Shown here: in pieces, positions 10,265 through 63,879 of the stretch
Layout of the letters: each line of letters starts with the position of its first letter
How positions within the stretch are numbered: position 1 is the first letter of the stretch
Source of the DNA: Thermoanaerobaculia bacterium
GTDB taxonomy: Bacteria; Acidobacteriota; Thermoanaerobaculia; UBA5066
Reading direction: 5' to 3'
Assembly (NCBI GenBank): GCA_963816185.1
Contig: CAWFJJ010000006.1
Span: 1,326 to 65,325 of the forward strand
Length of the DNA: 64,000 bases
Position numbers and translations under genes: made by a program
The notes under the pieces: model-generated
Seen by the model: the letters and a program-made list of their open reading frames with translations, nothing else
Database searches by the model: none
Told to the model about the DNA's origin: nothing

Positions 10265-11466
10265 ATGGACGAGGCGCCGTTCCTCCCGAGCGACCCGCCG
10301 CCCTTCGCGGCCCGGAGCCTCGCATGGCTCCTGATCGCCCTCTTCGCAGTGGCCGCTGTCGTATCGGTGGCGGTCAAGGTTCCCGAAACGGTCGTCGCCC
10401 CGTTCGCCCTTGTGCCCATGCGCGGCACCGATCCGGTTCGCGCTCCGCACGGAGGCACGGTCACGGAGGCTCTTGCCGTCGAGGGGCGCCCCGTGGCCAA
10501 GGGCGCGAGGCTCTTTGCCATCCGGTCGCAGGAGTTCGGGGACAGGGCCTCCGAGCGGAAGGCGCTCGAAGCAGGCCTCGGCGGACTTGCCGAGAGCCTT
10601 TCCAACGCCCGGAAGAGATTCGACAGCGAGGCCGGCGAGAGGCGTGAGGAGGCCCGGAGTCTCGCCGATCGCGCGGCCTATCTCGATCGGATGCTGGCTT
10701 TGAAGAGGGAGCAGCTCGCCTTGACGCTGGAGCAGTCCGAGCGGGCGAAGAAGCTCGCCGACCAGGGGCTCGCGAGCTTCAACGACCGTTCCGACGCCCA
10801 GATCCGGCACAGCCAGACCGTCATGGAGCTCGAGCAGCTCCAGTCCGACCGGAGCGCGACCGGGAGCGCCATCGAGAAGCTTCGCGACACCGAAGCGGCG
10901 AAGGGGACCGAGTTCCACGAGGAGGAGCGGGTCCTCGAGGAGAAGATCGCTCAGGCGAGAATCAGGATCGGCGCGCTCAGCGGGGGGCGCCCTCCGCCGG
11001 CGGAGACGAATCTGGAAACGAGCTGGCCGTCACTTCTCCGTGCGACGGCACCGTTCTCGGCGTCACGGCGCGGCGGGCCGGGGCGGTGGTCCGCGAAGGC
11101 GACGTCCTCGCCGAGGTCGCCTGCTCCGCCGAGACCCTGCAGGCCGAGCTGAGCCTCCCGCAGGGAGGGCTCTCCCGGATCCACCCCGGCCAGAGCGTCC
11201 GCCTCCTCCTCGACGCGTTCCCGTACCAGCGCTACGGCGTCCGCGGGGGAAGGGTCCGGTGGGCCAGCCCCTCCGGGGTCGGGACCCGCGAGGCCGCGAC
11301 CTTCCCCGTCCTCGTCGACCTGGACGAGCAGGCCGTCCCGGCGGACGGCGAGCGCAAGCCGCTCCTGGCGGGAATGCGCGGCACCGCGCGCGTCGTCGTC
11401 GGCCGCCGCACGCTCGTCGAGTACGCCTTCGAGCCTCTCCGGCAGCTTCGGGAGAACCTCCGGTGA
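10265..11466 (+). CDS. HlyD-family membrane-fusion/adaptor protein, reading frame interrupted once
   Basis: The ATG abuts the exporter stop (TAGATG). The N-terminal ~240 codons (TM helix LAWLLIALFAVAAVV, long coiled coil) are in one frame. The C-terminal barrel part (NELAVTSPCDGTVLGVTARRAGAVVREGDVLAEV...GMRGTARVVVGRRTLVEY) is in another. The two join only if the run GGGGGG at 10982-10987 gains or loses one G. Confidence 0.75.
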
Positions 11467-16128: not shown

Positions 16129-16174
16129 TGCCGCCCGAAATGACGCGCGAATCCAGAAGAAAGGAGAAACGAAC

Positions 16175-16306: not shown

Positions 16307-16327
16307 GTGGACAAAATGAGAACCGAC

Positions 16328-16453: not shown

Positions 16454-16504
16454 CGTCGAAACGAGTCACTCGAAACGACCCCTTCTCCGAAAGTGAACCG
16501 CGAG

Positions 16505-18741: not shown

Positions 18742-18776
18742 CGCCGGCCGACGGCCAGAAGGAAAGGAGAAACGCC

Positions 18777-18908: not shown

Positions 18909-18944
18909 CGAGAGCCGCTTCCTGCAAGGACCGCCCGATCCTCG

Positions 18945-19312: not shown

Positions 19313-19393
19313 GTTCCTGGAACACCCTTCATAGGTCTGGTCGAACCACTACAAGCCGGGTTACGACCGAAACAGGAAGAGAGGAGACACGAC

Positions 19394-19537
19394 ATGAAGA
19401 AGAACACGAAGAAGACAGCCTCCAAGGCAAAGGGGCCCAAGGCGACGAAGAACCTAGAGGTCAAACCCGCCAAGGGGGCGTCGGTCCGTGGCGGAGTGCA
19501 TGGTGGCTGGGACCAGGTCGGGAACAAGAAGTATTAG
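19394..19537 (+). CDS. precursor peptide N: MKKNTKKTASKAKGPKATKNLEVKPAKGASVRGG / VHGGWDQVGNKKY
   Basis: ATG after AGAGAGGAGACACGAC. 47 codons. The stop abuts the Cys-rich paralogue 2 ORF. Confidence 0.8.
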   Translation: MKKNTKKTASKAKGPKATKNLEVKPAKGASVRGGVHGGWDQVGNKKY

Positions 19538-20782
19538 TTGCCCTCTGATCAAGTGACCTCTCCGAAGACCCGCGCGGTCCGGCTCCCGTCGATCACCGAT
19601 GCTCCCGCCAGGGGCCTGGCACCGCTTCATGCGCGCTGGCTCGAGGCGGCGCTCGGGGGCAAGATTCCTTCCGAGCCACACGCGGCGTGCGACAACTGCG
19701 CGATGCTGCCGGTGTCCGGAGGCGCGGATGAAGAGCGCGGCGCAGTCTTCTTCAACCCCAGGACGAAGTGCTGCACTTACCTGCCGAGACTTCACAACTT
19801 TCTCGTCGGGGCGATCCTCGCAGACGAAGCGACCGATATGGCCGAAGGGCGTGCCCGCGTCCTGGAGAGGATCGGGAAGAAGGTCGGCGTGACGCCGCTC
19901 TGGGTCGGCGCCGGCGGCGCGTACAGCCTCGTGTACGACCACGGAGACGGGGTCTTCGGCCACAGCGAGGCGATGCGCTGCCCCTACTATCTCGAAGACC
20001 GGATCGACGGCGGCTGCGGGGTGTGGCGTCACCGCAATTCCATCTGCATGACCTGGTTCTGCAAGCATGAGCGCGGGGCCCCGGCGCTGCGGTTCTGGGA
20101 CTCGGCCAAAGAGCTGCTGATGGCCGTCGAGGAGAATCTCGCGATCCATTGCCTCGTCACTCTGGGTTTCGACGACGCGGCGCTCCGGACCAATTTCCCG
20201 TTCAAGGTTCCGAAATCTCAGCGGTCGGAAACCGTGAAGGGGGACGAGCTCGACGGCACGGTGAGCCCGGAACGATACAAGGCTCTCTGGGGGAGCTGGA
20301 CGGGCCGCGAGGAGGAGCTCTACCGCCAATGCGACGCGATCGTCCGAGACATCGAGTGGAAGGACGTCGAGCGCATCGGCGGCGCGAGCGTCGCACTCCT
20401 GTCGCAGCTCGCGCGCGCGGCCTATCAGGCGGTGATCCGTGACGACCTTCCCGAGCGGCTCGAGATCGGCAATCTCAGCGTCATCGGCACGGGGCGCGGG
20501 ACCTTGCGCCTGGCCACGTACAGCGCCTACGACCCCATCGACGCCCCGGCCGCGCTTCTCCCCGTGCTTCCCGCGTTCGACGGCTCCAGGGTGCCCGACG
20601 CCCTTCGCGCGATCGAAAGGGACCATGGGCTCGTCCTGAGCCCCGAGCTCGTCCGAAAGCTCGTCGACTACGGCCTGCTCCGCGCGGTGGACGCCCCCGA
20701 AGACGAGCAAGTCTGGCGAAACTCCATGAAAAGGCGGAAGCCGGGTCATCGCCAAAACAGGATGAAAGGAGAAACGACATGA
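19538..20782 (+). CDS. Cys-rich protein, paralogue 2 (YkgJ/FliB-like motifs)
   Basis: 414-aa ORF. Start is TTG 19538 or GTG 19553. About 47 substitutions over ~378 aligned residues versus paralogue 1 (manual count), and all 9 Cys of paralogue 1 are conserved. It lacks the stop used by paralogue 1 and reads 22 codons further, ending in an ATGA overlap with precursor O. Confidence 0.7.
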   Translation: MPSDQVTSPKTRAVRLPSITDAPARGLAPLHARWLEAALGGKIPSEPHAACDNCAMLPVSGGADEERGAVFFNPRTKCCTYLPRLHNFLVGAILADEATDMAEGRARVLERIGKKVGVTPLWVGAGGAYSLVYDHGDGVFGHSEAMRCPYYLEDRIDGGCGVWRHRNSICMTWFCKHERGAPALRFWDSAKELLMAVEENLAIHCLVTLGFDDAALRTNFPFKVPKSQRSETVKGDELDGTVSPERYKALWGSWTGREEELYRQCDAIVRDIEWKDVERIGGASVALLSQLARAAYQAVIRDDLPERLEIGNLSVIGTGRGTLRLATYSAYDPIDAPAALLPVLPAFDGSRVPDALRAIERDHGLVLSPELVRKLVDYGLLRAVDAPEDEQVWRNSMKRRKPGHRQNRMKGETT

Positions 20783-20910
20783 AGAAGATCACGAAGAAAG
20801 GTTCCTCAAAGGCTTCCAAGAAGAAGGCGGTCAGGAACCTCGACGTCAAGCCTGCGAAGGGCGGGACGGTCCGTGGAGGGGCAACCAGACTCGACAAGTG
20901 GCCCGGGTAG
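20779..20910 (+). CDS. precursor peptide O: MKKITKKGSSKASKKKAVRNLDVKPAKGGTVRGG / ATRLDKWPG
   Basis: ATG after GAAAGGAGAAACGAC. 43 codons. Confidence 0.8.
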   Translation: MKKITKKGSSKASKKKAVRNLDVKPAKGGTVRGGATRLDKWPG

Positions 20911-21227: not shown

Positions 21228-22404
21228 ATGCCGGTCGCGATGAAACCTGTGCTCACGGACGCCCTTCTCGAAAAGTGCCGCGAGAGGGCTCCTCTCTACG
21301 ACCGCGAGAACCGCTTCTGCCAGGAGGACTTCGACGACCTGAAGGCTGCCGGGCTATCTCCTCATGGCGGTTCCGAAGGAGTTTGGGGGGGCCGGCCTGA
21401 CGGTCGAGGAGGTCGGGCTCGAGACGCGCCGGCTCGCCTATTACGCTCCCGCGACCGCGCTCTGCCTCAACATGCACAACTACTGGGTGGGCGACGCGGC
21501 GGATCTCTGGCGGAGCGGCGACAAGTCCTGCGAGTGGGTCCTCAGGGAGGCGGCGGCCGGAGAGGTCTTCGCCGCTGGCCACGCCGAGCACGGCAACGAC
21601 ATCCCGGGTCTCCTGTCGACCTCGAAGGCCGAGCGCGTCGACGGGGGTTGGCGCATCACGGGAAAGAAGGCCTTCGGCAGCCTCACTCCGGTCTGGACGC
21701 GCCTCGGGCTCCACGCCATGGACACGAGCGACCCCGCCGCCCCGAAGATCGTGCATGTGTTCCTGCCGAAGGGGACGAAGGGCGTCACGGTCAAGGAGAC
21801 CTGGGACGTGCTCGGCATGCGCGCGACGAAGAGCGACGACACGATCCTCGACGGCGCGTTCGTCCCCGACAAGTACGTCGCACGTGTCGTCCCCGCCGGC
21901 GTCGCCGGGGTGGATATGTTCATCCTCGGCTTCTTCACGTGGGGCCTCGTCGGCTTCGCGAACGTCTACTACGCGATCGGGCAGAGGGCGCGCGACGTCA
22001 TCGTCGAGCAGCTCAAGACGAAGACGTCGATCGGCCTGACCCGGCCGATGACCTATCACCCGGAGATCCAGCACGGCGTCGCGGAGATCGCGCTCGAGCT
22101 CGAGTCGATCGGCCCGCACGTCGACGCGATCGCGCACGACTGGACACGCGGCGCCATCGGGCCGGACTGGTTTCTCAGGCTTGTCGCGATGAAGTACCAC
22201 GCGGTCGAGGGGGCCTTCCGCGTTGCGGACCGCGCGCTCGACCTCTCCGGCGGATTCGGCATGTTCAGGAAGAGCGAGCTCGAGCGGCTCTTCCGCGACT
22301 CGCGCGCGGGGCGGTTCCACCCGGCGAACTCGGCGCTCGCTCACGAGATCGTCGGAAAGCTGACGCTCGGGATCAGCCCGGACGAGCAGCCGCGCTGGGG
22401 CTGA
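21228..22404 (+). CDS. acyl-CoA dehydrogenase family protein, reading frame interrupted once
   Basis: N-terminal 41 codons (MPVAMKPVLTDALLEKCRERAPLYDRENRFCQEDFDDLKAAG, GGAGG 8 nt upstream) are in one frame. The rest (YLLMAVPKEFGGAGLTVEE... = ORF 21364..22404) is in another. The frames join if GGG at 21351-21353 were GG. Confidence 0.75.
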
Positions 22405-29127: not shown

Positions 29128-29255
29128 CGTCGGGCTCCCGACATCGGGTACGACGTCGAGACCACTGATATCCGCCCACTCACGTGCCCGCCGTCGGACA
29201 CGATATCGTCAGCTCGTCGAGTGCCAGATTCGCTCGACCGGGTCGGAGGGCGTCG

Positions 29256-30935
29256 ATGAATACGGCGGGAAAAGAGTTTCTCAAGGCTCGCGACTTTCTG
29301 CAGGAGCATCGCGAGGACTACGAATCGGCGTACCGCGGCTTCCGCTGGCCCGAGCTCGAGGAGTTCAACTGGGCCCTCGACTTCTTCGACCCCTGGGCCG
29401 AGGGTAACCAACGCCCGGCTCTCTGGATCGTCGACGAACAGGGTCGCGAGTGGAAATACTCGTTCGCCGAGATGCGGGAACGCTCGAACCGCGTCGCGAA
29501 CTTCCTCCGACGGCTGGGGCTTCAGCGCGGAGGCCGGGTCCTTCTCATGCTCGACAACCAGCCCGAGCTGTGGGAGACGGTTCTGGCCGCCATCAAGCTC
29601 GGCGCGGTCCTCATCCCGTCGTCGCTTCTCCTGACGAAGAGCGACCTTCAGGACCGGATTCGCCGCGGACAGGTGACGCTCGTCGCCGCGACACCCGAGA
29701 ACACTGGCAAGTTCGAGGGGCTCGAAGGGAGTTTCGTGAAGGTCCTCGTCGGCGGAAAAGCGGACGGCTGGGTCTCGTACGAGGAGGCGGGCGAGGCCCC
29801 CGCAGCCTTCCGCGCCGACTTCGTGACGAAGATCTCCGACGCCCTCTTCCTCTATTTCACGTCCGGAACGACCGCGCTTCCCAAGATGGTGCTTCACACG
29901 AACGGCTCCTATCCGGTCGGGCATCTTTCGACGATGTACTGGGTCGGGCTGAAGGAGGGCGACCTTCACCTGAACATCAGCTCGCCGGGGTGGGCCAAGC
30001 ACGCATGGAGCTCTTTCTTCGCGCCCTGGAACGCCGGCGCGACGATCTTCGTCCACAAGTACGCACGCTTTTCCCCGGCTTCCCTTCTCGAGACGCTGCG
30101 GAAATACCGGATCAACACGCTCTGCGCACCGCCGACCGTCTGGAGGATGGTGATCCTCGAGACCCTGGGAGCGCGGCCCGAAGGGCTGCGCGAGCTCGTG
30201 AGCGCCGGCGAGCCGCTGAACCCGGAGGTCATTGCACGGGTCGAGAAGGAGTGGGGCCTCACGATCCGCGACGGCTACGGCCAAACGGAGACGACGCTGC
30301 AGGTGGGAAACATGCCCGGCCTCCCCGTGAAGGTCGGCTCCATGGGGCGTCCCGCGCCCGGCTACCGGCTGGAGTTGCTCGACTCCGACGGCCGGGAGGC
30401 CGACGAAGGAGAGCTGGCTGTCCACCTCGAGCCGCGCCCCCTCGGTTTGATGGTCAACTACGCGGACGATCTCGCCCGCACCCGCGCTGCGATGTCGGGG
30501 GGCTACTACCGGACGGGCGACACGGCCTCGCGCGATTCGGAGGGGTACTTCTGGTTCATCGGCCGCGCGGACGACGTCTTCAAGAGCTCGGACTACCGGA
30601 TCAGCCCGTTCGAGATCGAGAGCTCCCTCCTCGAGTGCGGCCCCGTCGCCGAGGCGGCCGTCGTTCCCTCTCCCGACCCGATCCGCGGCTTCGTTCCGAA
30701 GGCCTACGTCACGCTCAAGCCCGGCTTCAAGCCGGATGCGGCGACCGCGGCGATGATCTTCGAGACGCTCCGGGCGAAGGTGGCCCCTTTCCGCCGCGTC
30801 CGGCGCCTCGAGTTCGTCACGGACCTCCCGAAGACCGTATCGGGCAAGATCCGCCGCGTCCAGCTTCGCGGCCAGGAGACGAACCGCGACGCGATGAGGC
30901 CGCAAGAGTTCCGCGAGGAGAGTTCGAAGGGTTGA
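29256..30935 (+). CDS. AMP-forming acyl-CoA synthetase (medium-chain type)
   Basis: ATG 29256 with GGAGGG upstream, inside ORF 29184..30935. Motifs YFTSGTTALPKMV, GYGQTET, YYRTGD, LPKTVSGKIRR. Confidence 0.85.
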   Translation: MNTAGKEFLKARDFLQEHREDYESAYRGFRWPELEEFNWALDFFDPWAEGNQRPALWIVDEQGREWKYSFAEMRERSNRVANFLRRLGLQRGGRVLLMLDNQPELWETVLAAIKLGAVLIPSSLLLTKSDLQDRIRRGQVTLVAATPENTGKFEGLEGSFVKVLVGGKADGWVSYEEAGEAPAAFRADFVTKISDALFLYFTSGTTALPKMVLHTNGSYPVGHLSTMYWVGLKEGDLHLNISSPGWAKHAWSSFFAPWNAGATIFVHKYARFSPASLLETLRKYRINTLCAPPTVWRMVILETLGARPEGLRELVSAGEPLNPEVIARVEKEWGLTIRDGYGQTETTLQVGNMPGLPVKVGSMGRPAPGYRLELLDSDGREADEGELAVHLEPRPLGLMVNYADDLARTRAAMSGGYYRTGDTASRDSEGYFWFIGRADDVFKSSDYRISPFEIESSLLECGPVAEAAVVPSPDPIRGFVPKAYVTLKPGFKPDAATAAMIFETLRAKVAPFRRVRRLEFVTDLPKTVSGKIRRVQLRGQETNRDAMRPQEFREESSKG

Positions 30936-31091: not shown

Positions 31092-32522
31092 ATGGCATAC
31101 CGAATGGCCCGGCAGGTCTGTGTCTTAGCGGCTATGTCAGGAAGTCCGCTTCTCTTGATGGCTCAGGAGCAGGGGCCGGCAGCAGAGGCTTCCGGGAACG
31201 AGGCATCGGTCCAGTCGCAAAATCTGGCCCCGGAGCAACTCGCCGACCTGGTCGCGCCCATCGCGCTGTATCCCGATCCGCTTCTGAGTCAGGTCCTGGT
31301 CGCGAGCACCTACCCGTTGGAGGTCGTCGAGGCGCAGCAGTGGCTGCAACGGAATAGACGTCTGAGGGGCCGGCAGCTGATGGACGCAGCCCAGGAGCAG
31401 AACTGGGACGCCAGCGTTCAGGGACTGGTGGCCTTTCCGGACGTGCTGGACACGCTGAACCAGGACGTCCAATGGACCACGGCATTGGGCAATGCCTTCC
31501 TCGCGCAGCAAGCGGACGTCATGAACGCGGTGCAGCGACTGCGCGCACGGGCGCAGGCGAACGGTACGCTCTCCTCCACCCGGGAGCAGACGGTTACCAC
31601 CGAGACGCCGGGCGAGCAGTCGGTCATAGAGATCGTGCCGGCCGATCCGCAGGTGATTTACGTGCCGGAATACGATCCAGACTCCATCTGGGGACCCCCG
31701 GAGTGGGGCACCTATCCGCCGCTGGATTACGTCAGCTACGGCTTCGGTTTCGGTCCGGCGATTGACATCGGATTTTGCTTCGGCGGGTGGAACGGCTGGG
31801 GCTGGCGCGGCTGGGGTTGGGGCTGGGGCCCGAACTGGTTTGGCGGCTCGGTGTTCGTCAACGGAGCGTTCTTCCGACATCATGGTTTCCACGGCCGGTT
31901 CCTGGCCGGCGGGTTTGCCGGCAGGAGGGTGTGGCGGCACGATCCAGGCCACCGGTCGGGAGTCTCGTACCCGAACGCTCGACTGGCAGCCCGGTATCAG
32001 TCTGCCTCGCTGGCTTCCCGGAGCACGATGGCAAGGCCGGAAAGCTTCAATTCGGCCCGATCGGCCGGCACGGGAAGCTGGAACCGGCTCGGGCCTGGGA
32101 CCGCGTCGACACGCGGAAGCCGACCGGTCACGCAGGGCGTTCGCGCCGCGACACCGCGGAGCACACGGCGCACAACCGAGGAAGCGTGGCGACGCTCTCC
32201 CGGTGCGCAACGCGAGCAGGTTCCCGTGCAGCGTTACTCGGCTCCGATGCGGCGCTATTCGGCCCCGGTGCGGCAGTACTCGGCTCCGGTGCAGCGGTAT
32301 TCGGCTCCGATCCAGCGGTATTCGGCTCCGGTGCAGCGGTATTCGGCTCCGGTCCAGCGCTACCCTTCTTCTACGCCGCGAGTGTCCCCGACGGGAAGTG
32401 GCGGGCGCAGCTTCGGCGGCGGTGCCGGCTCATACGGCTCAAGCCGTGGCGGAGGCGTGAGCAGCACGGGCGGCGGCCATGCCTCCGGTGGCGGCTCACA
32501 CGTTGGCGGCCACCGCCGGTGA
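31092..32522 (+). CDS. DUF3300 domain protein with C-terminal YSAP heptad repeats and Gly/Ser-rich tail
   Basis: 476-aa [35 protein letters not shown] is the DUF3300 signature. Also has a GW-rich segment and a VQRYSAP x7 block. Confidence 0.8.
32226..32364 (+). repeat. 21-nt tandem repeat (~6.5 copies) encoding (V/M/I)(Q/R)(R/Q)YSAP
   Basis: gtgcagcgttactcggctccg / atgcggcgctattcggccccg / gtgcggcagtactcggctccg / gtgcagcggtattcggctccg ... read directly from the sequence. Confidence 0.9.
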
Positions 32523-35431: not shown

Positions 35432-35887
35432 ATGAGAAACGTCCGCCCACGCATGGAGTCTGCTCTGCTCGACGCCTCGTCCGTGTCGTCGGCGAGACGG
35501 CAGACTCCTGCGGTTGCAGCGCACGAACATGACGGACAGTGCAGACTTGCGGTATCCGCCACGACGTGGGTGTGTGCGCTCTTCCTGGCGTTCGCCTTGC
35601 TCGGCCCAAGCGGCGGCAACGCGCAAGCCCAGGTCGTCACCGAGTTCAGTTCCGGCATTACCGCCAGCGCAAGCCCCCTCGGCATCACGGCAGGCCCCGA
35701 CGGCAACCTGTGGTTCACGGAATACAGCGGCCACCGCATCGGGCGGATCACCCCGCTCGGAGCCGTGACCGAGTTCAGCGCCGGCATCACCGCCGGCGCG
35801 CGGCCCGTCGGCATCGCGTCCGGCCCCGATGGCGATTTGTGGTTCGCGGAAGACGACGGCAACCGGGTGAACGGCTTCTTCAGGTGA
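35432..35887 (+). CDS. truncated Vgb/streptogramin-lyase-like beta-propeller repeat protein
   Basis: ATG 35432 after GGAGGGAGG. TM/signal segment, then only two blades ([23 protein letters not shown] / [19 protein letters not shown]) before the stop. Confidence 0.5.
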
Positions 35888-35954
35888 GCACTTGCGATCT
35901 TTCCGCCCGGAATCACTTTCAATGTGGGCACTTCTCAAGGAGGAGATTCGAATC

Positions 35955-45989: not shown

Positions 45990-46262
45990 GTGAAGGTCAA
46001 CGTATCGAGGTTCAACGCGTCCATTTTCGAGCTCGTCTACCCGGACAAGAAGGAGCGCGCCTTCCTGCGCCGCGTGGACCCGGAGTTCCTCGAAGCCCTG
46101 CAAGCCGAGGCCGCGTACGAGAGCAAGCTCAAGAAATTGCCGTTCGGCCTGGGGAAGAAACTGCTCTCCCCGCCGACGATCGAGATCACTGAAGCGCGCT
46201 GGCAAAGTCTGCGCGCCCGGATCTCCGGCTCCTTCCCGGCCGTGAAGATCGGTGGATCATGA
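45990..46262 (+). CDS. hypothetical protein (lower-GC patch)
   Basis: 90-aa ORF, GTG start. Normal amino-acid composition, unlike the overlapping reverse ORFs. The C-terminal part is encoded by the 64-nt repeat shared with the carD 3' end. Confidence 0.4.
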   Translation: MKVNVSRFNASIFELVYPDKKERAFLRRVDPEFLEALQAEAAYESKLKKLPFGLGKKLLSPPTIEITEARWQSLRARISGSFPAVKIGGS

Positions 46263-46743
46263 GGCTAGTCCTCACCAGGATCGCATCCGACTCTCGAATG
46301 GGACGCCGGTGAGCGAGGAAAGCGTTCTCTTGGTGGTTCCACGGCTCAGTCTCGATGGAGATAGCCGCGAGGTTGGAGACCTCGTCTTCACAACCCGGCA
46401 AGTCTTCCTGGTCAAGACGGCCGACAACGCGGTCGCACGAACGTTCGGCCTTATCGAAGCAGCCGCAGCAGCGGCCCAACGCAGCAGAAACTCCTTCCAA
46501 CAGCTTCAGGCTCGGCCTCTCAAGACTCTTCTCGCCATGGCGGAGCCACGCACGCGGTTCGAGTATCGTGAGCTTCAGAGCATCACCGTCAAGCTCGGCG
46601 GCCTCTTTTCCTGCCCCGCCGTCAGGATGATCCCCCACCACGGCCGGCGCCTCAAGCTCTCGGGTAAGCGGTCGACTCTCATACACCTCGCCACCGCCAT
46701 TTCCCTCCTGGCTCGTGTTGGAGCACCTATATCGCTTTCGTAG
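46252..46743 (+). CDS. hypothetical protein (lower-GC patch)
   Basis: 163-aa ORF, GTG start overlapping the previous stop. I recognise no family. Confidence 0.4.
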   Translation: MDHEASPHQDRIRLSNGTPVSEESVLLVVPRLSLDGDSREVGDLVFTTRQVFLVKTADNAVARTFGLIEAAAAAAQRSRNSFQQLQARPLKTLLAMAEPRTRFEYRELQSITVKLGGLFSCPAVRMIPHHGRRLKLSGKRSTLIHLATAISLLARVGAPISLS

Positions 46744-49184: not shown

Positions 49185-49349
49185 CCCCGGGGATTGACTT
49201 TTGCCGCGCCCAGCACCACGTTGAGACGAAGACGATGTTGAGGCGTTGACCTGCCGGGCCCTTCGTGGCCACCCATGCCCGTCAGCGAGCCACTAGTGAA
49301 ACCGGCAACGTCTCGTTGCCGGTTCTTGCTTTCTCCGACGGTTTGAGGG
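49185..49349 (+). other. conserved non-coding element, copy 1 (candidate sRNA or 5' leader with terminator-like hairpin)
   Basis: ~165 nt, almost identical to 63427..63593. Contains TTGACT/TTGAGA/TTGAGG/TTGACC boxes, the stem CTGCCGGGC/GCCCGTCAG with a variable loop, and the hairpin ACCGGCAAC-gtctc-GTTGCCGGT (49301-49323) followed by TCTTGCTTTCT. Lies ~100 nt upstream of the S8 peptidase start. Confidence 0.5.
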
Positions 49350-49447
49350 GGCCCTCGTATCTCTCAACCCTCTCAAACTCCTGGCCACACAGCTTCTCGC
49401 CCTTCTCCATCTTCTGCTCGTGGGATTTCCCCCAAGGAGGTTTCTCG

Positions 49448-51634
49448 ATGAGTATAGGAATACTTCGATCCACCTTTCTGCTCGGTGTCGCGGCTCTGTT
49501 GACCGCGGCCGAGCTCGCAGCGGACCAGGCGGTCATCGTGCGGACGATGAAACCGTACGGCGCGGTCAAGCAGAAGATTGCCGCCCTCGGCGGGACCGTG
49601 ACATACGAGTTCAAGAATGCGAACGGTCTGGCGGTGAGCATTCCCGACAACAAGCTCGACGCGTTGAACCTGACCGACGGAGTCCTTTACACCGTGCGCG
49701 ATGAAACCGTGCCTGCCCCGAAGCCCAAGCTGATCGTCGACGTCACAGGCGACGTTCAGTCGGACCTGGGCTCGGATGCGGCACCGGCGAACTACTACCC
49801 CTACAACAGCGATCTGACCGATGCGCTGCCGCTGCAGACGGCGGGAATTCTCGGGCAGGGGGTCGTGGTCGGAGTCATCGACACGGGCACCTCTCGCTCG
49901 GCGACGGCTCTCTGCACGGGCGCCTGCGCGACGGGGACACGCGTCCTCGGCGGCGAGAGCTTCGTCCCGGGCGAGCCGGACGCCACGGCCCCCACAAACG
50001 GCGCTCACGGAACCTGGGTCGCCTGCATGATCGGCGCGAATCGCACGTTCGGGTTCGCCAGCACCAGCGCGCTCGCGATCGCTGTCCGCACGTACTGCAC
50101 ACCGGCGGCTTCCTCCCCCTGCTCGTTCACGGCGGCTCCGGGTGTCGATGGGATCCCGATGGTCGGCCAGGCTCCCGCAGTGCAATTCTTTGCCCTGAAG
50201 GTCTTCCCGGCGTCGGGAGCCGGAGCGCCGACCAGCCGCATCATGGCGGCCATGGATCGCGCGATCGATCTGAAGAACTCCACCCAGCCGAATATGAAGG
50301 TCGTCAACATGAGCCTGGGCGGGCCGACGCTTCTTGCGGGCGGAGACATCGAAGATGAGCTCGCGACTTCCATGGCCAACTCAGGCATCACCCTCGCCGT
50401 CTCGGCAGGCAACGCGGGGCCGAGCGGCATGACGGTCGGAAGCCCCGGTACGGCGCACGGCATCCTGACGGTGGGCGCGGCCTCGAGCCCCGTCCATGAG
50501 CGCATCCTGCGAGACCTACAGTACGGGGCCGGCGTCGGGCCGCTCTATCGCCCGGACAACAACCAGCAGATGGCCTACTTCAGCTCGCGCGGCCCCGACG
50601 CGGATGGCCGCATCGATCCGGAGGTCGTCGCCAACGGCTTCGCCTCCTACGCCCAGGGCGCCGACGGCTCGATCTCCCTGGTCTCCGGAACTTCCTTCTC
50701 CGCGCCGACCATCTCCGGCGTCGCGGCCCTCCTCTACAGCGCGAAGCCGTCGGCGACGCCGGCGCAAATCCGCTCCGCGATCGTCGGCTCGGCGCGTTCG
50801 ACAGTCATTCCGACCGCGACCGCTGTCGATCAGGGCCACGGCTACGTCGACGCGGCTGCTGCGGAGACGCTTCTGAATACGAATCCCGGCCCGATCGCCG
50901 ACACCGGTCCCGCAAAGAAGAAGGTGACGCAGAATGTCCAGGAGGGCGCCGGCATTCAGCCGATCAACAGCTCCTCGTTCACCACGCACGTTGCCGATCT
51001 GCGGCCCGCGGAGCGCCGCGAGTACTACTACGTCGTCAGCAAGAACACGGCCCAAGTCCGCGTTACCCTCTCCAACGTGACGCCGGCGCTCCCGGCCTCA
51101 CAGCAGAACGCGTTGTTCGGCGACGACCTCCTCTTTGCCGTCCACTCCGCCAAGACCTCGGCGATCGGCGAAGGGGACTACCTCGCCTTCGATTTCGTCA
51201 ACGGCGCGAGATCCTTCGTTTTCGACCGGCCGGAAAACGGCGTCATGCGCGTCACCGTCAACGGAGACTGGACCAACGCCGGGAAGATCGCGACCGACCT
51301 CGCGATCGAGGAAGTCACGGCGCCCCGCTCCAAGAAAGACTTCAAGGGGAAGATCTCGCAGGGCGAGCTCGTCACGCAGACAGTCGACATCCCGGCGGGA
51401 ACCGCGTCCGTCACGTTCAGCCTCTCCTGGGACAACGACTGGAGCAGCTACCCAACCAACGATCTCGATCTGTACCTCGTGTCTCCCGGCGGCGTCCTGA
51501 ACACCAGCGGTGCGACGTTGAACAGCCCGGAAGTCGTCACGATCACGAACCCGCTGCCGGGCACCTGGACGATCTTCGCCGACGGGTTCACGATCTTCGG
51601 CAAGGATGACAAGTACGAAATCCGGATCGACTAA
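49448..51634 (+). CDS. secreted subtilisin-like (S8) serine peptidase with C-terminal beta-sandwich domain
   Basis: ATG 49448 after AAGGAGG, inside ORF 49265..51634. Signal peptide. Catalytic triad motifs VGVIDTGTS, HGTWVACM, SGTSFSAPTISG. Confidence 0.9.
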   Translation: MSIGILRSTFLLGVAALLTAAELAADQAVIVRTMKPYGAVKQKIAALGGTVTYEFKNANGLAVSIPDNKLDALNLTDGVLYTVRDETVPAPKPKLIVDVTGDVQSDLGSDAAPANYYPYNSDLTDALPLQTAGILGQGVVVGVIDTGTSRSATALCTGACATGTRVLGGESFVPGEPDATAPTNGAHGTWVACMIGANRTFGFASTSALAIAVRTYCTPAASSPCSFTAAPGVDGIPMVGQAPAVQFFALKVFPASGAGAPTSRIMAAMDRAIDLKNSTQPNMKVVNMSLGGPTLLAGGDIEDELATSMANSGITLAVSAGNAGPSGMTVGSPGTAHGILTVGAASSPVHERILRDLQYGAGVGPLYRPDNNQQMAYFSSRGPDADGRIDPEVVANGFASYAQGADGSISLVSGTSFSAPTISGVAALLYSAKPSATPAQIRSAIVGSARSTVIPTATAVDQGHGYVDAAAAETLLNTNPGPIADTGPAKKKVTQNVQEGAGIQPINSSSFTTHVADLRPAERREYYYVVSKNTAQVRVTLSNVTPALPASQQNALFGDDLLFAVHSAKTSAIGEGDYLAFDFVNGARSFVFDRPENGVMRVTVNGDWTNAGKIATDLAIEEVTAPRSKKDFKGKISQGELVTQTVDIPAGTASVTFSLSWDNDWSSYPTNDLDLYLVSPGGVLNTSGATLNSPEVVTITNPLPGTWTIFADGFTIFGKDDKYEIRID

Positions 51635-56463: not shown

Positions 56464-56605
56464 CCTCTCCCTAAGGCAAGAAAGTCGCTCGGAAGCTCTT
56501 CGACGAAACCCTAAACAAGGGTGAGTGGGACACCTACCTCGCCACCCACGCCCCGGCGTTTCAGGCGCACTCCCTTGACAGAATCCGAGTCGCAATCGAG
56601 ACTGA

Positions 56606-59600
56606 ATGATCAGCGGAACGCCCGCCGACGACGCCGAAACGACACTGGACACGCCGGGCCTGAAGGACGGGGCGGGTCGTCCGATCCTGCCGGCCGATCG
56701 GGCAGCCGCGGGCGAAGCGTCCGAGGCCACGGACTCGTTCATCCGGCCGGGCCTCGTCATGAACGGGCGCTACCGGGTCGACCGTCTCCTCGCGCGCGGG
56801 GGAATGGGAGGCGTCTACCGCGTCGACGATCAGCTCTTTCCGGGGCGTCCGACGGCCCTCAAGATCTTCCTTCACCCGCTCCGGAACACGGTCGAGCTGT
56901 TCCGCGCCGAGTTCAGAACCATGGCGTCGCTGCGCCACCCGAACGTCGCCCGCGTGTACGACTTCGAGCAGGTCGCGGGCCAGGACGCGTTCTTCTTCAC
57001 GATGGAGCTCCTGCCCGGCGTGCCGCTCGACCGCTTCCTGGCCGAGCCGCGCGCCGAAGCGGAGACGTCCGATGCGGGGTCTCCGCCGCCCGCCTCCACG
57101 GTCGACGCGTCGGCCGTGCGCGGCCCCTCGGCCGGGCGGATCGTGCCGTGGGGGGACGCTCTCGAGCTTCTCGTCCCCGTCATCCGCGCGCTCGCGTACC
57201 TTCACGGCCGCGGCGTCGTCCACTTCGACCTCAAGCCCGGCAACATCGTGGTCAGCTCGCGCGGCGCCCAGCGCCACGTGAAGGTCCTCGACTTCGGCCT
57301 CGCGGGCCTGCGCGGCGTCCGCGGGCTCGTGATGGGCACTCCGCATTACCTCTCGCCCGAGATCGCGAGCGCGAAGGAAGGCGACCACCGCTCCGACCTC
57401 TACAGCCTCGGCATCATGGCGTACCGCCTGCTGACGGGCGAAACGCCATTCAGCACGACGCAGGGCCTCAGCGTCCTCCTCAAGCGGAAGCTCACCGAGC
57501 CGGTGCGCTTCACGAGTGCGCACGCGGAACGCGTGCCGGACTGGCTCCGCACGATCGTCGAGCGCCTCTGCTCCGTCGATCCGGCCGGGCGACCCGCGAG
57601 CGCCGGCGACCTCCTCGACGAGATCAACCGCGCGGGCGGCCTCGCGTACGAACTCGAGACGCGCGACGCCCGCGAGAACTATCTCTTCTCGAGCGCCTTC
57701 GTCGGCCGCTCTCACGAGATGGAGGACGTGAACCGCTCGATCGACGCGGCCCTCAAGGGCGATCGGCACGCCGGCCTCTTCGTCACGGGCCGGAGCGGCA
57801 TGGGGAAGTCGCGCCTCATGCGCGAGGTGCGGCTGGCCGTCCAGCTGCGCGGCGTCCCGTTCCTCGAGGTCGACTGCTTCGAGCGCGACCTGACCGAGTC
57901 CGGGCCGATGGCGAACCTCGTCCTGCAGGCCGCCCGCCTCGCGACATCCGTGGGCGCGCAGTCGCTCCTCAATGCGCACGCGCCGGAGATGGTCAAGCTC
58001 GTTCCGTCGCTCCCGCTCGACGCGGGGGTCGCGCCGACGCCGCCGCTCCCGAACGCGGACGCCGAACGCCGGCGCGTCCTCGAGGCCATCGCCGCGTTCC
58101 TCGTCGGGCTCGGCCGCATCACGCCGTACGTCGCGTACGTGAACGACTTTCAGTGGGCGCGCGACGGCACCGTCGACGTCGCCTCGTCGCTCCTCGCGAT
58201 CCGCTCGGGCGCGGCTGTCGCGGCCACGGGCTCGAAGTTCTGCCTCCTCGGCAGCTACCGCGTCGACGACGTGACGGGCCGGCCGCTCGCGCGCCTCGTC
58301 CAGCCGGGACCCGAGCGCCCGGCGCCGCGCGTCGTCGAGCTCTCCCCGCTTCGCGACGAGGACGTCGCCGGCCTCCTCAGGTCCATGCTCGGCCTCTCCG
58401 AGCTGCCCGATTGGCTCGCCGCGCACGTCGCCGAGTCGAGCGAGGGCCTCCCGTTCTTCGTCGAGGAGATCCTGCGCGACCTCCTCGAAGAGGGCCGGCT
58501 CGGGATGGCGGACGGAAGGGGTGCAAAGCTCGCCGAGGGCCTGCGCATCGACGCGGCCGCGTCCTTCCTGAAGCGCGCGGCGCGCGTCTCGCCCGGCGAG
58601 CGGAGCCTCCTCGACATCCTCGCCGTCTCGGGGCGGCCCTTGGACACGGACGTCCTGCAGGAGGTGAGCGGCCTTCCGCGGCCGGCGGCCCGCGAGGCCC
58701 TCCAGATCCTCGGCGAGAAGCAGATGGTCGTCGCGATCCAGGGCGAGAAGGAGCGCTACAACCTCGCCCACGACCGCATGCGCGAGGCGCTCTACGTGGG
58801 CCTGCACGCGGACGCGCAGACGGCCCTCCACCTGCGCCTCGGGAGGAGCCTCGCCCGCGCGCTCGCGGCGGGCGGCCGGTGGGAGACGCTCTTCGAGGCC
58901 GTCGCCCACTTCGGCCAGGCCCTCGACCGCGACGGCCCCGGGGCGCTCGCCGACGAAGCCGAGCGCACGGGCGTCGCGCGCCTTCAGCTTCGGGCGGCCG
59001 TGGCCACGAACGCGACGGGAGCCTTCTCGACCGGCGTCTCCTACCTCGAGCGCGCGCTCTCCCTCCTCCCCGAGCGCGCGTACGAGCGTACGTACGACCT
59101 TGCCCTCGCCGTCGACCACGCGCTCGCCGCGACGCTCATCCCGCTCGGGCGCGTCGACGAGGCGCTAAGGGCCGCGGACCGCATCGTCGCGAACGCGCGC
59201 GGCGCCCTCGACGAGTCGCCCGGATGGGAGGCCCGCATTCTCGCGTACGCCGCGCTCAACGAGTATCCGAAGGCGATCGCGGCCGGCATCGAGATCTGCG
59301 GGCGGCTCGGCCTCGCGCTGCCCACGGACCCCACGCGCCTCGACATCGCCCGGATCCTCGGCCGCGTCCTCTGGAAGGTCCGCAACATGACGGACGAGAC
59401 GCTCGCCACGCTCCCAGAGGTCGAGGACCCGCGCGCCCTGCGCCTCATTCGCATCATGTCGTCGATGACGGCGTGCGCGTACGTCTCGCGGCCGTACCTG
59501 TGGCCCGTCCTCATCGGCAATTGCCTGACGCTCATGCTGCGCCACGGCCGCGGGCCCACGCACGCGCTCCTCTTCGTCTGGTTCGCGACGGCGCTCAACG

Positions 59601-60596
59601 CCGTGGGCCTCTACGGCGCGTCGGTGCGCTTCTCGCGCCTCGGCACGCGCCTCATGGGCGCGCCCGACGGCGCCGCGTTCCTCCCGAAGCTGCACCACGC
59701 GATGGGGCAGTTCGTGTCGCACTGGAGGGAGCCGATCGCCCGCTCGGCCGAGTGGTGCCGCGAGGGCTACGCGCTCGGCCGGCGCGTGGAGGACGCGGAG
59801 TTCGCGGGCTACTGCCACATGGGCTGGGCGAAGGCGCGGCTCGAGATGGGCGAGCCGCTCTCCGAGGTGCGGACGACGGCGCTCGACGCCCTCGAGACGA
59901 TCCGGGCTTCGGGACAGATCGGCACCGAGGTCATGCACCGGACGACGATCGAAGTCGTCGACGCCCTCATGGGCCTCGCCCCCGTGCCGGCCGCCGGCGC
60001 CGGCGACGCCGCGCGCTCCGCCGAGCTCAGCAACACGCAGAACGCTTTCCGCCTCCTCGACCGCGCGCGCCTCCTCTGCTTCTTCCGGAGGAGCGGCGGC
60101 TCCGCGCTGGGACGCGAGCTCCTGAAGGTGAGCGAGATCGGCCTGCCGGCGACGTTCTTCCTCTCCATCGCGCACTACGTCGCGTGCCTGGGCTGGATGC
60201 TCGAGGCGCGCCGCGGCGGCGCCTTCACGCGGCTCGCAGTGCCTCGTTCGCGTGCGCCTTGCGCGCGGCCGGATTCGCAAATGGGCGCGCCTCTGCCCCC
60301 ACAATTTCGAGCACCGCGCGCTCCTCGTGGACGCCGAGTGGCTGCGCACGACGGGACGCCCCGGGCGCTCGCTTCGCAGATACGAAGAGGCGATCGCGGC
60401 GGCGTACGACCACGGGTTCGTCCAGGACGCGGGGCTCGCGCACGAACTCGCGGCCGAGATGCTGGTCGACCGCGGGGACGAGCGCGCGGCGCGGACGCAC
60501 GTCCTCGCGGCGCTGGAGAGATACCGCGCGTGGGGCGCCGACGCGAAGGTCCTGGACCTGCAGACGCGTTACGCCCGATTCCTCGCCGCCGCCTGA
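56606..60596 (+). CDS. Ser/Thr kinase - AAA(STAND) ATPase - TPR multidomain protein, frame interrupted near the 3' end
   Basis: ORF 56606..60664 carries the kinase (RGGMGGVYRV, HFDLKPGNIV, DFGLAG) and P-loop (VTGRSGMGKSRLM), then turns into Arg/Pro-rich sequence after ~60240. The family-typical C-terminus (NFEHRALLVDAEWLR...ALERYRAWGADAKV) is ORF 60252..60596 in another frame. A single-nt shift lies between ~60236 and 60252. Confidence 0.8.
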
Positions 60597-60615
60597 CGCG
60601 TGACCGCCCGGCCGG

Positions 60616-62791
60616 TCAGATCGAGATGCTGTTCGGAATCATCGAGGGCAGCTGGTTCTCGTAAGGCAGCGGGCGCGTCCGGTTGCGCTTGCGGATCTCG
60701 GCCTCGATGGCGGCGAGCGCCATCCTGAAGTCGACGTTGACGGCCTCGGCCCGCGCGTCGGCGAAGTAGGGCCGGCGGGGATTGTCGGAGTACGTGCCGA
60801 ACGTGTCGTACTGCACGCTGCTCAGGAGGTACCCGAACGCCACCTGGTAGAGCGCGACGTCGACGGGCGGCAGCAAGCCGAGCAGGGGGTCGGGAGAACC
60901 GGCGGCCCTCGAGCCCGAGGGCGGCGGCGCGTACGCCGTGCCCGAGACGCTCGGCAGGTACGACATCAGGGGGTACTGCGCGTAGTTCACGTTCGCGTGC
61001 TGCGGTCCGGCCGTGTAGACGATGAGCGACACCATGTCGACGAGGTAGTCGAAGCTGTCGAGCTGCGCCGTGCCCTGTCCCTCGGCGCCGCCTGTCGAAC
61101 GTCAGGCCGCCGAGCCCGCGGAACGCCGCGCCGGCCGGGCTCGTGATCTCCTCGACCCACGCCTGCACTTCCTTGTCCGCGCGCACGTCGTCGTTGCCCG
61201 CCGTAGTAGCACGCGAGATACGCGCGCACGTACTCGCGGATCGCGTCCCAGAGGAGGAGGGTGTCGTCGCGGAACGGGAACTCGGGCAGCCGCTCGCGGT
61301 CGACTCCCCGGAGCGCGAACAGGCGGTGCGGCAGGTTCTGGTCGAAGCGCCACGCGAGCCGCGCGTCCCGCACCATCCCGAGGCTTCCGGCGATGCTCGG
61401 CGACAGCACCGACGCCACGACGCCGTGCGGAATGATGAGGCTGTGCTTGGCGCCCTCGTTGATGTCGAGCGTGAACCGGAAGTGCGGCGCCAGGAGCGCG
61501 AGGATCGGATGCTCGACCGAGAGCTGGCGGTTCGTGGCGACGACGAGCGTCTCGACGGTGAGATGGCAGGCGCCGAGGTGCGCGACCGTCTCGTGCTGCA
61601 CGGCGACGGCGTTCAGCACCCAGAACTTCGCGACCTTCCACGCCGTGGCGTCGCCGCCGGGAAGGAAGATCGGACAGGTCACGGGGTCGTGCTTCTGGCC
61701 GACCTGGATCGCGACCGGCTGCAGGCTGCCGCGCCCCTCCGGGAAACCCGGCCCCGGCTCGGGGTTCCAGTAGAAGAGGGCGATCGGCGCGGCGAGGTAG
61801 CGCTGGTCCCCGTGGAGCCTGCTCGCCTCTACGCCGTCGAACATCGTGAGGTCGAGCGCGTAGAGACGGCCGATCTCCGCCGCCCGCTGCAGCGTGAGGG
61901 ACGAGTCGCCGGAGGCGGCCTTCAAGCATCGCGTCGGTCACGGGCATCTTCGAAAGCAGAGCGCCGAGGTCGACCGCGAGCTCGGGTGCCATACCCCTCG
62001 GGAAGACGCCCTTGAGGTTCGAAGTGTTGAAGCCGGCGATCTGGAGCCAGCCGAAATACCAGTCGCTCTCCCACACCTCCTGGCCGGGCGCGAGGCGCAT
62101 CCACGGCTGCGGCTCGAAGTTCGATCACGGCGGGCGGTCCGGGGAAGCCCGGGTACAGCGTCTTGAACTCCGCGAGGTCCTTCGCGTGCAGGTACCCGTC
62201 GCCCGTCTGTGGCGTCCGGAGAACTTCGTAGAGCGTGTCCCTCAGGAACGACGTGATGCCGACGTCCTTCATGTCCTGGAGCGACTTCGAGACCGCCTTC
62301 TCGAGCCCCTCGACGAGCGGCGGGATCTCGGACATCTTCTTGTACGCCTCAGCGAGCTCCGGCGGGCCGCCTTCGAGCGACTCGAAGATCCTGACGATTG
62401 CAGCGAGGTCCGCGGGGACGTTCAGCGGGTTGAGACCCGAGAACTGTTTCTTCGCGGCGTCGATCGCGCTCTGCAGCGCGACCATCCACGGCATCGGCAT
62501 CGCCGGAAGGTCCGCGCGCAGCTGCGCCTCGAATCGGGCGACGAGGACGCTCTTGAGGTTCTCGGCGACCTCGAGGAGGACGGGCGCGACCTTCGCCTTG
62601 TACGCGAGCGAGAACCTCTCGGAGTCGGGCACCTGCGCCGCGAGCGGCGCGGGGTACAGGTAGCTCGTCGTGTAGTTGTATCGCGTGCGCGCGAGCGAGA
62701 GCTCGTAGCTCCGGTGATGGGCACGTTTCTCGTCGTCCTTCTGCGGGAGGGATGGAAGGGAGCCAATCACGAAGCCTCCTCGACACGTCAT
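60616..62791 (-). pseudogene. lipoxygenase gene broken by four single-nucleotide frameshifts
   Basis: Four consecutive reverse-strand pieces in different frames: (1) ..SLPQKDDEKRAHHRSYELSLARTRYNY..LYPGFPGPPAV. (2) NFEPQPWMRLAPGQEVWESDWYFGWLQIAGFN..PVTDAML. (3) KAASGDSSLTLQRAAEIGRLYALD..WKVAKFWVLNAVAVQHETVAHLGACH..LLLWDAIREYVRAYLACYYG, then NDDVRADKEVQAWVEEITSPAGAAFRGLGGLTFD. (4) GGAEGQGTAQLDSFDYLVDMVSLIVYTAGPQHANVNYAQY...IPNSISI. Shifts lie near 62120-62130, 61919-61928, 61197-61202 and 61088-61097. Metal-ligand motifs and the C-terminal Ile are retained. Confidence 0.8.
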
Positions 62792-63426: not shown

Positions 63427-63593
63427 CCCCGGGGATTGACTTTTGCCGTGTCCGGCACCACGTTGAGACAAAGACGATGTTGAGGCGTTGACCTGCCGGG
63501 CCCTTCGTGGACACCTACGCCCGTCAGCGAGCCACTAGTGAAACCGGCAACGTCGCGATACCGGTTTTTTGCTTTCTCCGACGGCTTCGAGGG
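63427..63593 (+). other. conserved non-coding element, copy 2
   Basis: Near-identical to 49185..49349. The hairpin is AACCGG-N13-CCGGTT followed by TTTTGCTTTCT. Lies ~85 nt upstream of the CsbD-like gene. Confidence 0.5.
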
Positions 63594-63675
63594 TACCCGA
63601 GCCCGAAGTTGAAGCGACGTGTTTGCATGCAGGCGAGCGCAATCTTTGTAAACGTTTGTGGAAAGGAAAACCCCC

Positions 63676-63879
63676 ATGAAAAAGCAGGAAGTTCGCGGAA
63701 AAGTGAAGAAGGTCAAGGGGAAGGCTAAGGAGACCGTCGGGATCCTCACCGGCAACAAGAAGATGGAAGGTGAGGGGTCCCTTCAGCGCGCCGCGGGCGC
63801 GGTCCAGGAGGGGTTCGGCAGGGCTGGCCGCATGGTCGGCGATGCCGTGACCAGTCTCGGCAACGTTTTCAAGAAGTAG
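63676..63879 (+). CDS. CsbD-family general-stress protein
   Basis: 67 codons from ATG 63676 (AAAGGAAAA upstream), inside ORF 63658..63879. KGKAKETVGILTGNKKMEGEG matches the CsbD repeat. Confidence 0.75.
   Translation: MKKQEVRGKVKKVKGKAKETVGILTGNKKMEGEGSLQRAAGAVQEGFGRAGRMVGDAVTSLGNVFKK

What the first reader, a model, noticed from the sequence alone, without database searches (positions are those of the whole stretch)
60616..62791. Bacterial lipoxygenase gene with four frameshifts but intact catalytic motifs
Lipoxygenases are uncommon in bacteria (established). Here the whole ~715-codon gene can be reconstructed from four or five reverse-strand pieces, each separated by a single-nt indel. The metal ligands (HETVAH...H, HANVN, C-terminal ..PNSISI) and long conserved blocks show no missense decay or stop codons within the correct frames. 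That pattern fits either very recent inactivation or local sequencing error. Programmed frameshifting at four sites is implausible.
Basis: partly seen in the sequence, partly recalled or inferred. Interest (0 to 1): 0.5.

Follow-up and report, generated by a model that had tools for sequence, protein, structure and literature searches.

The report
Lipoxygenase gene broken by assembly errors
This is an ordinary bacterial lipoxygenase gene from an uncultured Acidobacteriota lineage, and its four reading-frame breaks are most likely single-base insertion errors of a long-read metagenome assembly rather than real gene decay.

Summary
A minus-strand lipoxygenase gene (60616-62770, GTG start) is split into five pieces by four single-base insertions at about 62123, 61925, 61199 and 61096. 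Once repaired, it gives a 716-aa protein with no internal stop. The protein matches PF00305, keeps the iron-ligand motifs, and is 89-90% identical to intact 725-727-aa proteins from Thermoanaerobaculia/Acidobacteriota MAGs.

The breaks are most likely assembly artefacts, for four reasons:
- All ten close orthologues lack the four insertions; every other indel among the intact orthologues is a multiple of three.
- The window's own branch shows purifying selection (27 synonymous, 15 non-synonymous changes), also downstream of the first break, with no excess over its sister.
- The same contig carries the same kind of +1 insertion in the adjacent kinase gene (about 60238) and in an acyl-CoA dehydrogenase gene (about 21352). 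A HlyD-type gene has a one-base loss in a G run.
- The closest relative is a contig of a Nanopore-only Flye/Medaka metagenome assembly. It has seven different private frameshifts in the same two genes, six of them +1 insertions.

One caveat remains. The breaks cluster more in this gene than a uniform error rate predicts, so a very recent real pseudogene is not excluded (about 0.1). Only reads or Sanger sequencing can settle it. Interest is low.

The parts
60616..62770 (-). Lipoxygenase gene. GTG start at 62770-62768 behind GAGGAGG; TGA stop at 60618-60616. 2155 nt as given, 2151 nt (716 aa plus stop) once the four inserted bases are removed.
62120..62123 (-). Frameshift 1: a 1-nt insertion, GATCGAAC where the orthologues have GAT-CGGC or GAT-GAAC. 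The frame moves by +1.
   Evidence: All 10 orthologues have a gap here.
61924..61925 (-). Frameshift 2: a 1-nt insertion, GCTTGAAGG where L003/L004 have GC-TGAAGG and L001 GC-TCGTGG (T read as TT).
61197..61199 (-). Frameshift 3: a 1-nt insertion, GGCGGGCAAC where the orthologues have GGC-GGCAAC (GG read as GGG).
61093..61096 (-). Frameshift 4: a 1-nt insertion, TTCGACAGGCGG where the orthologues have TTC-GCCGGCGG or TTC-ACCGGAGG.
56606..60596 (+). Adjacent convergent gene for a STAND-type Ser/Thr kinase (Pkinase + AAA_16 in the orthologue L002). It is broken by a private 1-nt insertion at about 60238. Its last 117 codons (60240-60593, stop at 60594-60596) are in the next frame.
21228..22404 (+). 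Acyl-CoA dehydrogenase gene with a +1 insertion at 21351-21354 (GCCGGGCTAT). This is a control showing the same defect type elsewhere on the contig.
   Evidence: The repaired protein aligns across the junction with PDB 5GJ7, residues 10-377.
10265..11466 (+). HlyD-type gene with a probable 1-nt deletion in the G6 run at 10982-10987. This is a control and is less certain than the acyl-CoA dehydrogenase case.

Best explanation
The organism, an uncultured Thermoanaerobaculia-like member of the Acidobacteriota, most likely carries an intact, functional iron lipoxygenase gene of the bacterial type: a PF00305 catalytic domain with an N-terminal extension of about 230 aa that matches no Pfam family (no PLAT hit). 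The four frame breaks in the window are single-base insertion errors in the consensus of a long-read metagenome assembly, probably Nanopore-type. They are concentrated in a 1.9-kb patch (60238-62123) that also covers the 3' end of the convergent kinase gene.

What is shown: the insertions exist in the sequence, are private to it, and have left no trace of relaxed selection. Frameshifts also occur in three other genes of the contig, two of them with the same +1 insertion. What is inferred: the insertions are absent from the organism's DNA. The cause of the local clustering is speculative; candidates are low effective coverage, or reads from related co-occurring strains mixed during polishing of a module conserved between genomes.
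For: 1. All 10 orthologues compared lack the four insertions. Every other indel among the nine intact orthologues is a multiple of 3; the only other odd-length indels are two private +1 insertions in L001, itself a frameshifted Nanopore contig. The set includes short-read assemblies (k141_ and NODE_ contigs) and two Microflora Danica MAGs.
2. In the repaired frame, dN/dS against the orthologues is 0.24-0.39, the same range as intact pairs (0.24-0.37).
3. Changes polarised onto the window's own branch are 27 synonymous and 15 non-synonymous (P=1e-7 against neutrality). Downstream of the first break they are 14 and 10 (P=6e-4). The sister branch (L001) has 23 and 17, so the window shows no excess. 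There are no in-frame stops.
4. Three other genes on the same contig are also frameshifted. The kinase (about 60238) and the acyl-CoA dehydrogenase (about 21352) carry the same non-homopolymer +1 insertion, and HlyD has lost one base in a G6 run. That makes 6 of the 7 frameshifts +1 insertions.
5. The closest relative, L001, is ENA ERZ25039554 contig_71078, about 94% amino-acid identity. Its accession and contig naming match the same series as L002, the contig_35474 that GenBank lists as part of MAG MFD01872.bin.2.157. L001 has 7 different private frameshifts in the same two genes, 6 of them +1 insertions. L002 has a split AMP-binding gene where the window's copy is intact.
6. The MFD assemblies are Nanopore-only: Flye --meta with one round of Medaka (PMC12313526). 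Such consensus sequences are known to contain indels that cause frameshifts when coverage is below about 40x (PMC9262707).
7. The window's contig (87,587 bp) is held by NCBI and ENA, as the MFD MAG contigs are.
Against: 1. The clustering is real. About 4 of 7 verified frameshifts fall in 2.15 kb out of roughly 41 kb of coding sequence that could be checked by homology (my estimate). The binomial P is about 2e-4 before allowing for post hoc selection. A uniform error model is therefore not enough, and the local cause I propose is untested.
3. No intact full-length copy at 95% identity or more from the same population was found to compare with.
4. Three of the four LOX insertions are not in homopolymer runs of three or more bases, which is where residual Nanopore errors are classically found.
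Confidence: 0.82

Rival explanations
1. The gene is a real, very recent pseudogene. It was inactivated in this population by one frameshift and then picked up three more, perhaps along with the kinase as part of a decaying two-gene module.
For: The frameshifts are significantly concentrated in the LOX gene and the adjacent kinase 3' end compared with the rest of the window, where large multi-domain genes are intact. The window also has a private 27-nt N-terminal deletion. The sister contig L001 is also broken in both genes.
Against: No shift is shared with L001. There is no excess of non-synonymous changes on the window branch (15, against 17 on the sister branch). dN/dS for the pair (0.28) is within the range of intact pairs, and there are no stop codons. 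From general knowledge, spontaneous indels are roughly ten times rarer than substitutions in bacteria, so three further neutral indels should come with tens of extra substitutions; none is seen. All the indels are +1 insertions, whereas bacterial pseudogenes typically show a deletion bias (general knowledge). The same defect also hits unrelated genes 40-50 kb away.
Confidence: 0.12
2. The population is heterogeneous. The consensus merges reads from two or more co-occurring strains that share the conserved LOX-kinase module, and this creates hybrid alleles with extra bases at multi-nucleotide polymorphisms. This is a specific mechanism within the artefact explanation.
For: At sites 1 and 4 the window sequence looks like a hybrid of the L001-type and L003-type alleles: GAT-C-GAA against GAT-CGG or GAT-GAA, and TTC-G-AC against TTC-GCC or TTC-ACC. 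The LOX-kinase module is 90-95% identical between genomes whose flanks are unrelated.
Against: The association of the insertion sites with variable patches is not significant: 3 of 5 sites, null fraction 0.24, P of about 0.1.
Confidence: 0.3
3. Programmed +1 ribosomal frameshifting or transcriptional slippage restores the protein at all four sites.
For: Only that the downstream frames are intact.
Against: None of the orthologues needs a shift at these positions. The four sites share no sequence motif, and the incoming frame has no stop or known slippery signal at any of them. Four sites in one gene would be unprecedented.
Confidence: 0.01

Closest known systems
Lipoxygenase family proteins of Thermoanaerobaculia/Acidobacteriota MAGs (for example P0001, P0003 and P0135 = HEX7614714.1; 725-727 aa)
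   Same: They are 89-90% identical over the whole repaired protein and have the same length class. The convergent STAND Ser/Thr kinase neighbour is found next to the gene in every locus searched for it (L002-L005, L008, L009, L017; in part L006, L007).
   Different: Their reading frames are uninterrupted. The window has four 1-nt insertions and is 9 codons shorter at the N-terminus.
Bacterial lipoxygenase structures annotated as arachidonate 15-lipoxygenase: PDB 5MED (569 aa), and 4G32 and 4RPE (688 aa). From memory, 5MED is the Cyanothece enzyme and 4G32 the Pseudomonas aeruginosa enzyme.
   Same: The catalytic domain aligns over residues 260-716 (E=1.4e-70 and 1.5e-58). The H-x4-H, H-x3-N and C-terminal Ile motifs are conserved.
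   Different: Only the catalytic domain is clearly homologous. The N-terminal 230 aa or so of the Acidobacteriota protein has only a weak match (8.6 bits). Substrate and product specificity are unknown.
Indel-induced frameshifts in Nanopore-only metagenome assemblies
   Same: Single-base indels fragment otherwise conserved genes. Each assembly carries its own private set. The effect is documented for bins below about 40x coverage (PMC9262707). The related MFD contigs were produced with Flye plus one round of Medaka (PMC12313526).
   Different: The classic residual errors are homopolymer deletions. Here 6 of 7 are +1 insertions, mostly outside long homopolymers, and they are locally clustered.

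Membership tests
Lipoxygenase (Pfam PF00305) | Significant match to the family profile above the curated cut-off | tested here: met
   The repaired protein scores E=2.8e-51 and 175.3 bits against a cut-off of 23.6. Residues 238-705 match profile positions 188-655 of 673.
Lipoxygenase (Pfam PF00305) | Non-haem iron ligands: two His in H-x4-H, a His and Asn in H-x3-N, and the C-terminal Ile carboxylate. The ligand set is from established knowledge. | tested here: met
   HETVAH, HANVN and the terminal ...PNSISI align with HEAISH, HAAVN and ...PNSTSI of PDB 5MED.
Lipoxygenase (Pfam PF00305) | A single uninterrupted reading frame that encodes the whole enzyme | tested here: not met
   In the sequence as given the gene is in five pieces with four +1 shifts. 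Whether this holds for the organism's DNA cannot be tested here.
Lipoxygenase (Pfam PF00305) | Dioxygenation of polyunsaturated fatty acids | not testable with these tools
   This requires an enzyme assay of the repaired or re-sequenced gene.
Genuine pseudogene | Relaxed selection: dN/dS rising towards 1, stop codons in the ancestral frame, excess substitutions on the lineage | tested here: not met
   The window branch has 27 synonymous and 15 non-synonymous changes; the sister has 23 and 17. The pair's dN/dS is 0.28, against 0.24-0.37 for intact pairs. There are no internal stops.
Genuine pseudogene | The disabling mutations are present in the organism's DNA, with read-level support | not testable with these tools
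   No reads are available, and the window's own record could not be retrieved.
Programmed ribosomal frameshifting | The shift site is conserved in orthologues and has a recognisable slippery or stall signal | tested here: not met
   All orthologues are in frame at the four sites. The sites share no motif.
Long-read assembly indel artefact | The same kind of indel also breaks unrelated conserved genes in the same assembly, and sister assemblies carry different private sets | tested here: met
   The kinase, the acyl-CoA dehydrogenase and HlyD are broken in the window. L001 has 7 other frameshifts, and L002 has a split AMP-binding gene.
Long-read assembly indel artefact | The source is a long-read-only assembly with low local coverage | tested here: inconclusive
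   The relatives are Nanopore-only MFD assemblies. The window's contig is held by NCBI and ENA and is 87,587 bp long, but its record and coverage could not be seen.

The most novel reading that the evidence does not exclude
The four insertions, and the one in the neighbouring kinase, are real. The conserved LOX-kinase module would then have been inactivated very recently in this population by an unusually insertion-prone local mutational process, too recently for substitutions to accumulate.
Probability: 0.1. Interest if true: 0.25.

Novelty: already known. Interest (0 to 1): 0.07.

Why it matters
The main value is as a caution. Gene callers will report this locus as four or five fragments or as a pseudogene, when the organism almost certainly has a working lipoxygenase. 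Frameshift-aware annotation or short-read polishing is needed before drawing conclusions about gene loss in MAGs of this kind. Lipoxygenases of the Acidobacteriota have not been characterised experimentally; a 2026 review of bacterial lipoxygenases does not mention the phylum.

Tried and rejected
- I tried to retrieve the window's own record, to learn the sequencing technology, the coverage and how the locus was annotated. Exact look-ups of four window proteins found no gene on record. The cluster look-up showed only that three window proteins are in the collection, from an 87,587-bp NCBI/ENA contig.
- I looked for an independent assembly of the same population with an intact gene, scanning genome contigs, metagenome contigs and cluster members. 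The best full-length relatives are about 90% identical. The closest are L001 (about 94%, itself frameshifted) and a 252-aa JGI fragment, P0148, which is 94% identical and uninterrupted across sites 3 and 4.
- I tested whether the insertion sites coincide with multi-nucleotide polymorphic patches, which would support the strain-mixture idea. The result was 3 of 5 sites, P of about 0.1, which is not significant.
- A home-made codon-usage dynamic-programming gene map only suggested candidate junctions. Several of them could not be checked because the ORFs have no Pfam match (about 2115-2205, 31874-32006, 35881-35931, 46250-46402). The background frameshift count outside the locus is therefore somewhere between 3 and about 7.
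- Programmed frameshifting was considered and rejected on the orthologue evidence.

Full report
**The observation**

ORF listing and three-frame translation of the minus strand between 60560 and 62900 show five consecutive open pieces that together read like a lipoxygenase. A conceptually joined protein matches Pfam PF00305 at E=2.8e-51 over residues 238-705. A search of the large protein database returns more than 120 full-length relatives. The best are 88-89% identical over 98-99% of the query and 721-727 aa long. They come from JGI, ENA and NCBI metagenomes and MAGs, and the named ones are Thermoanaerobaculia or Acidobacteriota "lipoxygenase family protein". tblastn of these intact proteins against the window covers their whole length in five segments, in frames -1, -2, -3, -1, -2.

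Nucleotide alignments with ten orthologous genes place four private 1-nt insertions in the window at about 62123, 61925, 61199 and 61096. Apart from two private +1 insertions in L001, every other indel in the alignment is a multiple of three.

Two small corrections apply:
- The conserved start is the GTG at 62770, behind GAGGAGG. The upstream ATG at 62791 has no counterpart in the relatives. The repaired product is 716 aa.
- The window lacks 27 nt, in frame, in the variable N-terminus.

The repaired frame has no internal stop. The metal-ligand motifs (HETVAH...H, HANVN, terminal Ile) align with those of the closest solved structure, 5MED (E=1.4e-70), and of 4G32.

**Real decay or artefact**

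Four lines of evidence bear on this.

1. Selection. In the repaired frame, dN/dS between the window and each orthologue is 0.24-0.39. Pairs of intact orthologues give 0.24-0.37. I polarised the differences between the window and its closest relative (L001) using five outgroups. This puts 27 synonymous and 15 non-synonymous changes on the window's branch, against a neutral expectation of 75% non-synonymous (P=1e-7). Downstream of the first frameshift the counts are 14 and 10 (P=6e-4). The sister branch has 23 and 17, so the window shows no excess of changes. If three further indels had accumulated neutrally after a first inactivating one, tens of extra substitutions, mostly non-synonymous, would be expected. 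That expectation is an inference from the general indel-to-substitution ratio in bacteria. No such excess is seen.

2. The defect is not specific to this gene.
 - The convergent neighbour, a 1334-aa-class STAND Ser/Thr kinase, has a private +1 insertion at about 60238, and its last 117 codons continue in the next frame.
 - An acyl-CoA dehydrogenase 40 kb away has a +1 insertion at 21351-21354. After removal of one base, the protein aligns across the junction with PDB 5GJ7 (residues 10-377), and the Pfam N-domain match lengthens from profile positions 44-90 to 16-90.
 - A HlyD-type gene appears to have lost one G from a G run at 10982-10987.
 - In total, six of the seven frameshifts in the window are +1 insertions.

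3. The relatives.
 - The closest relative, L001 (ENA ERZ25039554 contig_71078, about 94% amino-acid identity), carries two different private +1 insertions in its LOX gene and five frameshifts in its kinase gene. Six of those seven are also +1 insertions.
 - L002/L003 has both genes intact but a split AMP-binding gene where the window's copy is intact.
 - GenBank titles identify L003 and L017 as Microflora Danica MAGs, MFD01872.bin.2.157 and MFD04944.bin.1.209.
 - That project used Nanopore-only assembly: Flye --meta --nano-hq with one round of Medaka (PMC12313526).
 - The same group documented that such consensus sequences retain frameshift-causing indels, and that bins below about 40x need short-read polishing (PMC9262707).
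 - Short-read assemblies of comparably related genomes (k141_ and NODE_ contigs) have both genes intact.
 - Three exact proteins of the window are in the collection, from one 87,587-bp contig held by NCBI and ENA. This is the same source pattern as the MFD MAG contigs. I could not retrieve the record itself.

4. Programmed frameshifting is excluded for practical purposes. No orthologue needs a shift, and the four sites share no motif.

**What does not fit neatly**

The frameshifts are clustered. Pfam shows complete domain architectures in most large genes of the window: two prolyl oligopeptidases, a C39 ABC exporter, a GGDEF-EAL protein, two PD40 kinases, an S8 protease, an AMP-binding enzyme and others. 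I estimate these at about 32 kb with no break. By contrast, five breaks lie between 60238 and 62123. Four of seven falling in about 5% of the checkable coding sequence gives a binomial P of about 2e-4, which stays nominally significant after allowing for post hoc selection of the gene.

A uniform error rate therefore does not explain the pattern. Either there is a local technical cause or the decay is real. The LOX-kinase pair is 90-95% identical at the DNA level between genomes whose flanking genes differ. Reads from related co-occurring strains could thus have been mixed during consensus polishing of exactly this module. Sites 1 and 4 do look like hybrids of two alleles seen in relatives. 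However, the association with variable patches is not significant (3 of 5 sites, P of about 0.1). The L001 contig shows that densities of about one frameshift per kb do occur in contigs of this kind.

Weighing the selection evidence against the clustering, I put about 0.82 on artefact, about 0.12 on a real and very recent pseudogene, and about 0.01 on recoding; the small remainder is left unassigned. The strain-mixture mechanism (about 0.3) is a special case of the artefact explanation, not an addition to these figures.

**Comparison with what is known**

The gene is a member of the lipoxygenase family. The profile match and the ligand motifs were tested and met; activity was not testable. Only the catalytic domain (residues 260-716) aligns clearly with the bacterial LOX structures 5MED and 4G32/4RPE, and no family other than PF00305 (hence no PLAT match) was reported. 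[quoted passage not shown]

Lipoxygenases are reported in fewer than 0.5% of sequenced bacterial species (PMC6612559). In metagenomic collections, though, this clade is well populated, with near-identical orthologues already annotated. Nothing here is new in kind. The finding is an annotated-elsewhere gene family member with assembly-type frameshifts. Interest is low.

Noticed in passing
window 12600-20910 (+), with 7082-12438 upstream: At least 12 small ORFs (41-62 aa) form one family. They share a leader, MKKTTKK..SKASHKKAVKNLEVKPAKGGTVRGG, followed by short variable tails. Examples are 13191-13376, 14748-14885, 15146-15286, 15374-15520, 15597-15734, 15997-16128, 16175-16306, 16328-16453, 16726-16914, 18777-18908, 19394-19537 and 20779-20910. 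They lie directly downstream of an ABC exporter with a cNMP-binding (two matched stretches) and a peptidase C39 domain, a HlyD-type protein and a sigma-54 activator. They are interleaved with a Cys-rich 471-aa ORF and a TPR plus GT41 glycosyltransferase. This looks like a multi-precursor locus for export or modification of double-glycine-leader peptides.
   Followed up: partly
window 49230-49316 (+) and 63472-63558 (+): Two Rfam hits above the gathering score to the c-di-GMP-II-GAG riboswitch variant RF03169 (49.0 and 49.8 bits). One lies just upstream of an S8 subtilase with a PPC domain (about 49265-51634). The other lies upstream of a CsbD-like small protein (63658-63879).
   Followed up: no
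window 56606-62770; L002-L005, L008, L009, L017 (also L011, L015): The lipoxygenase gene and a roughly 1330-aa STAND-type Ser/Thr kinase (Pkinase + AAA_16) form a tail-to-tail pair only a few bases apart. The pair is conserved in Thermoanaerobaculia loci and at least some Vicinamibacteria loci, while the flanking genes differ in the three loci whose flanks were compared (window, L001, L002). This suggests a functional link.
   Followed up: partly
L001 1-16549 and L002 19618-21298: Related Nanopore-derived contigs carry their own frameshifts. L001 has 7 in the LOX-kinase module, and probably more in a second kinase that is split into three ORFs (33-2307). L002 has an AMP-binding gene split in two, where the window's copy (29184-30935) is intact.
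   Followed up: partly
window 56560-56606: At the 5' end of the kinase gene the window lacks about 45 nt that L001, L003 and L004 have. The ATG at 56606 follows a stop codon directly, and the orthologue's N-terminus is 7 aa longer.
   Followed up: no
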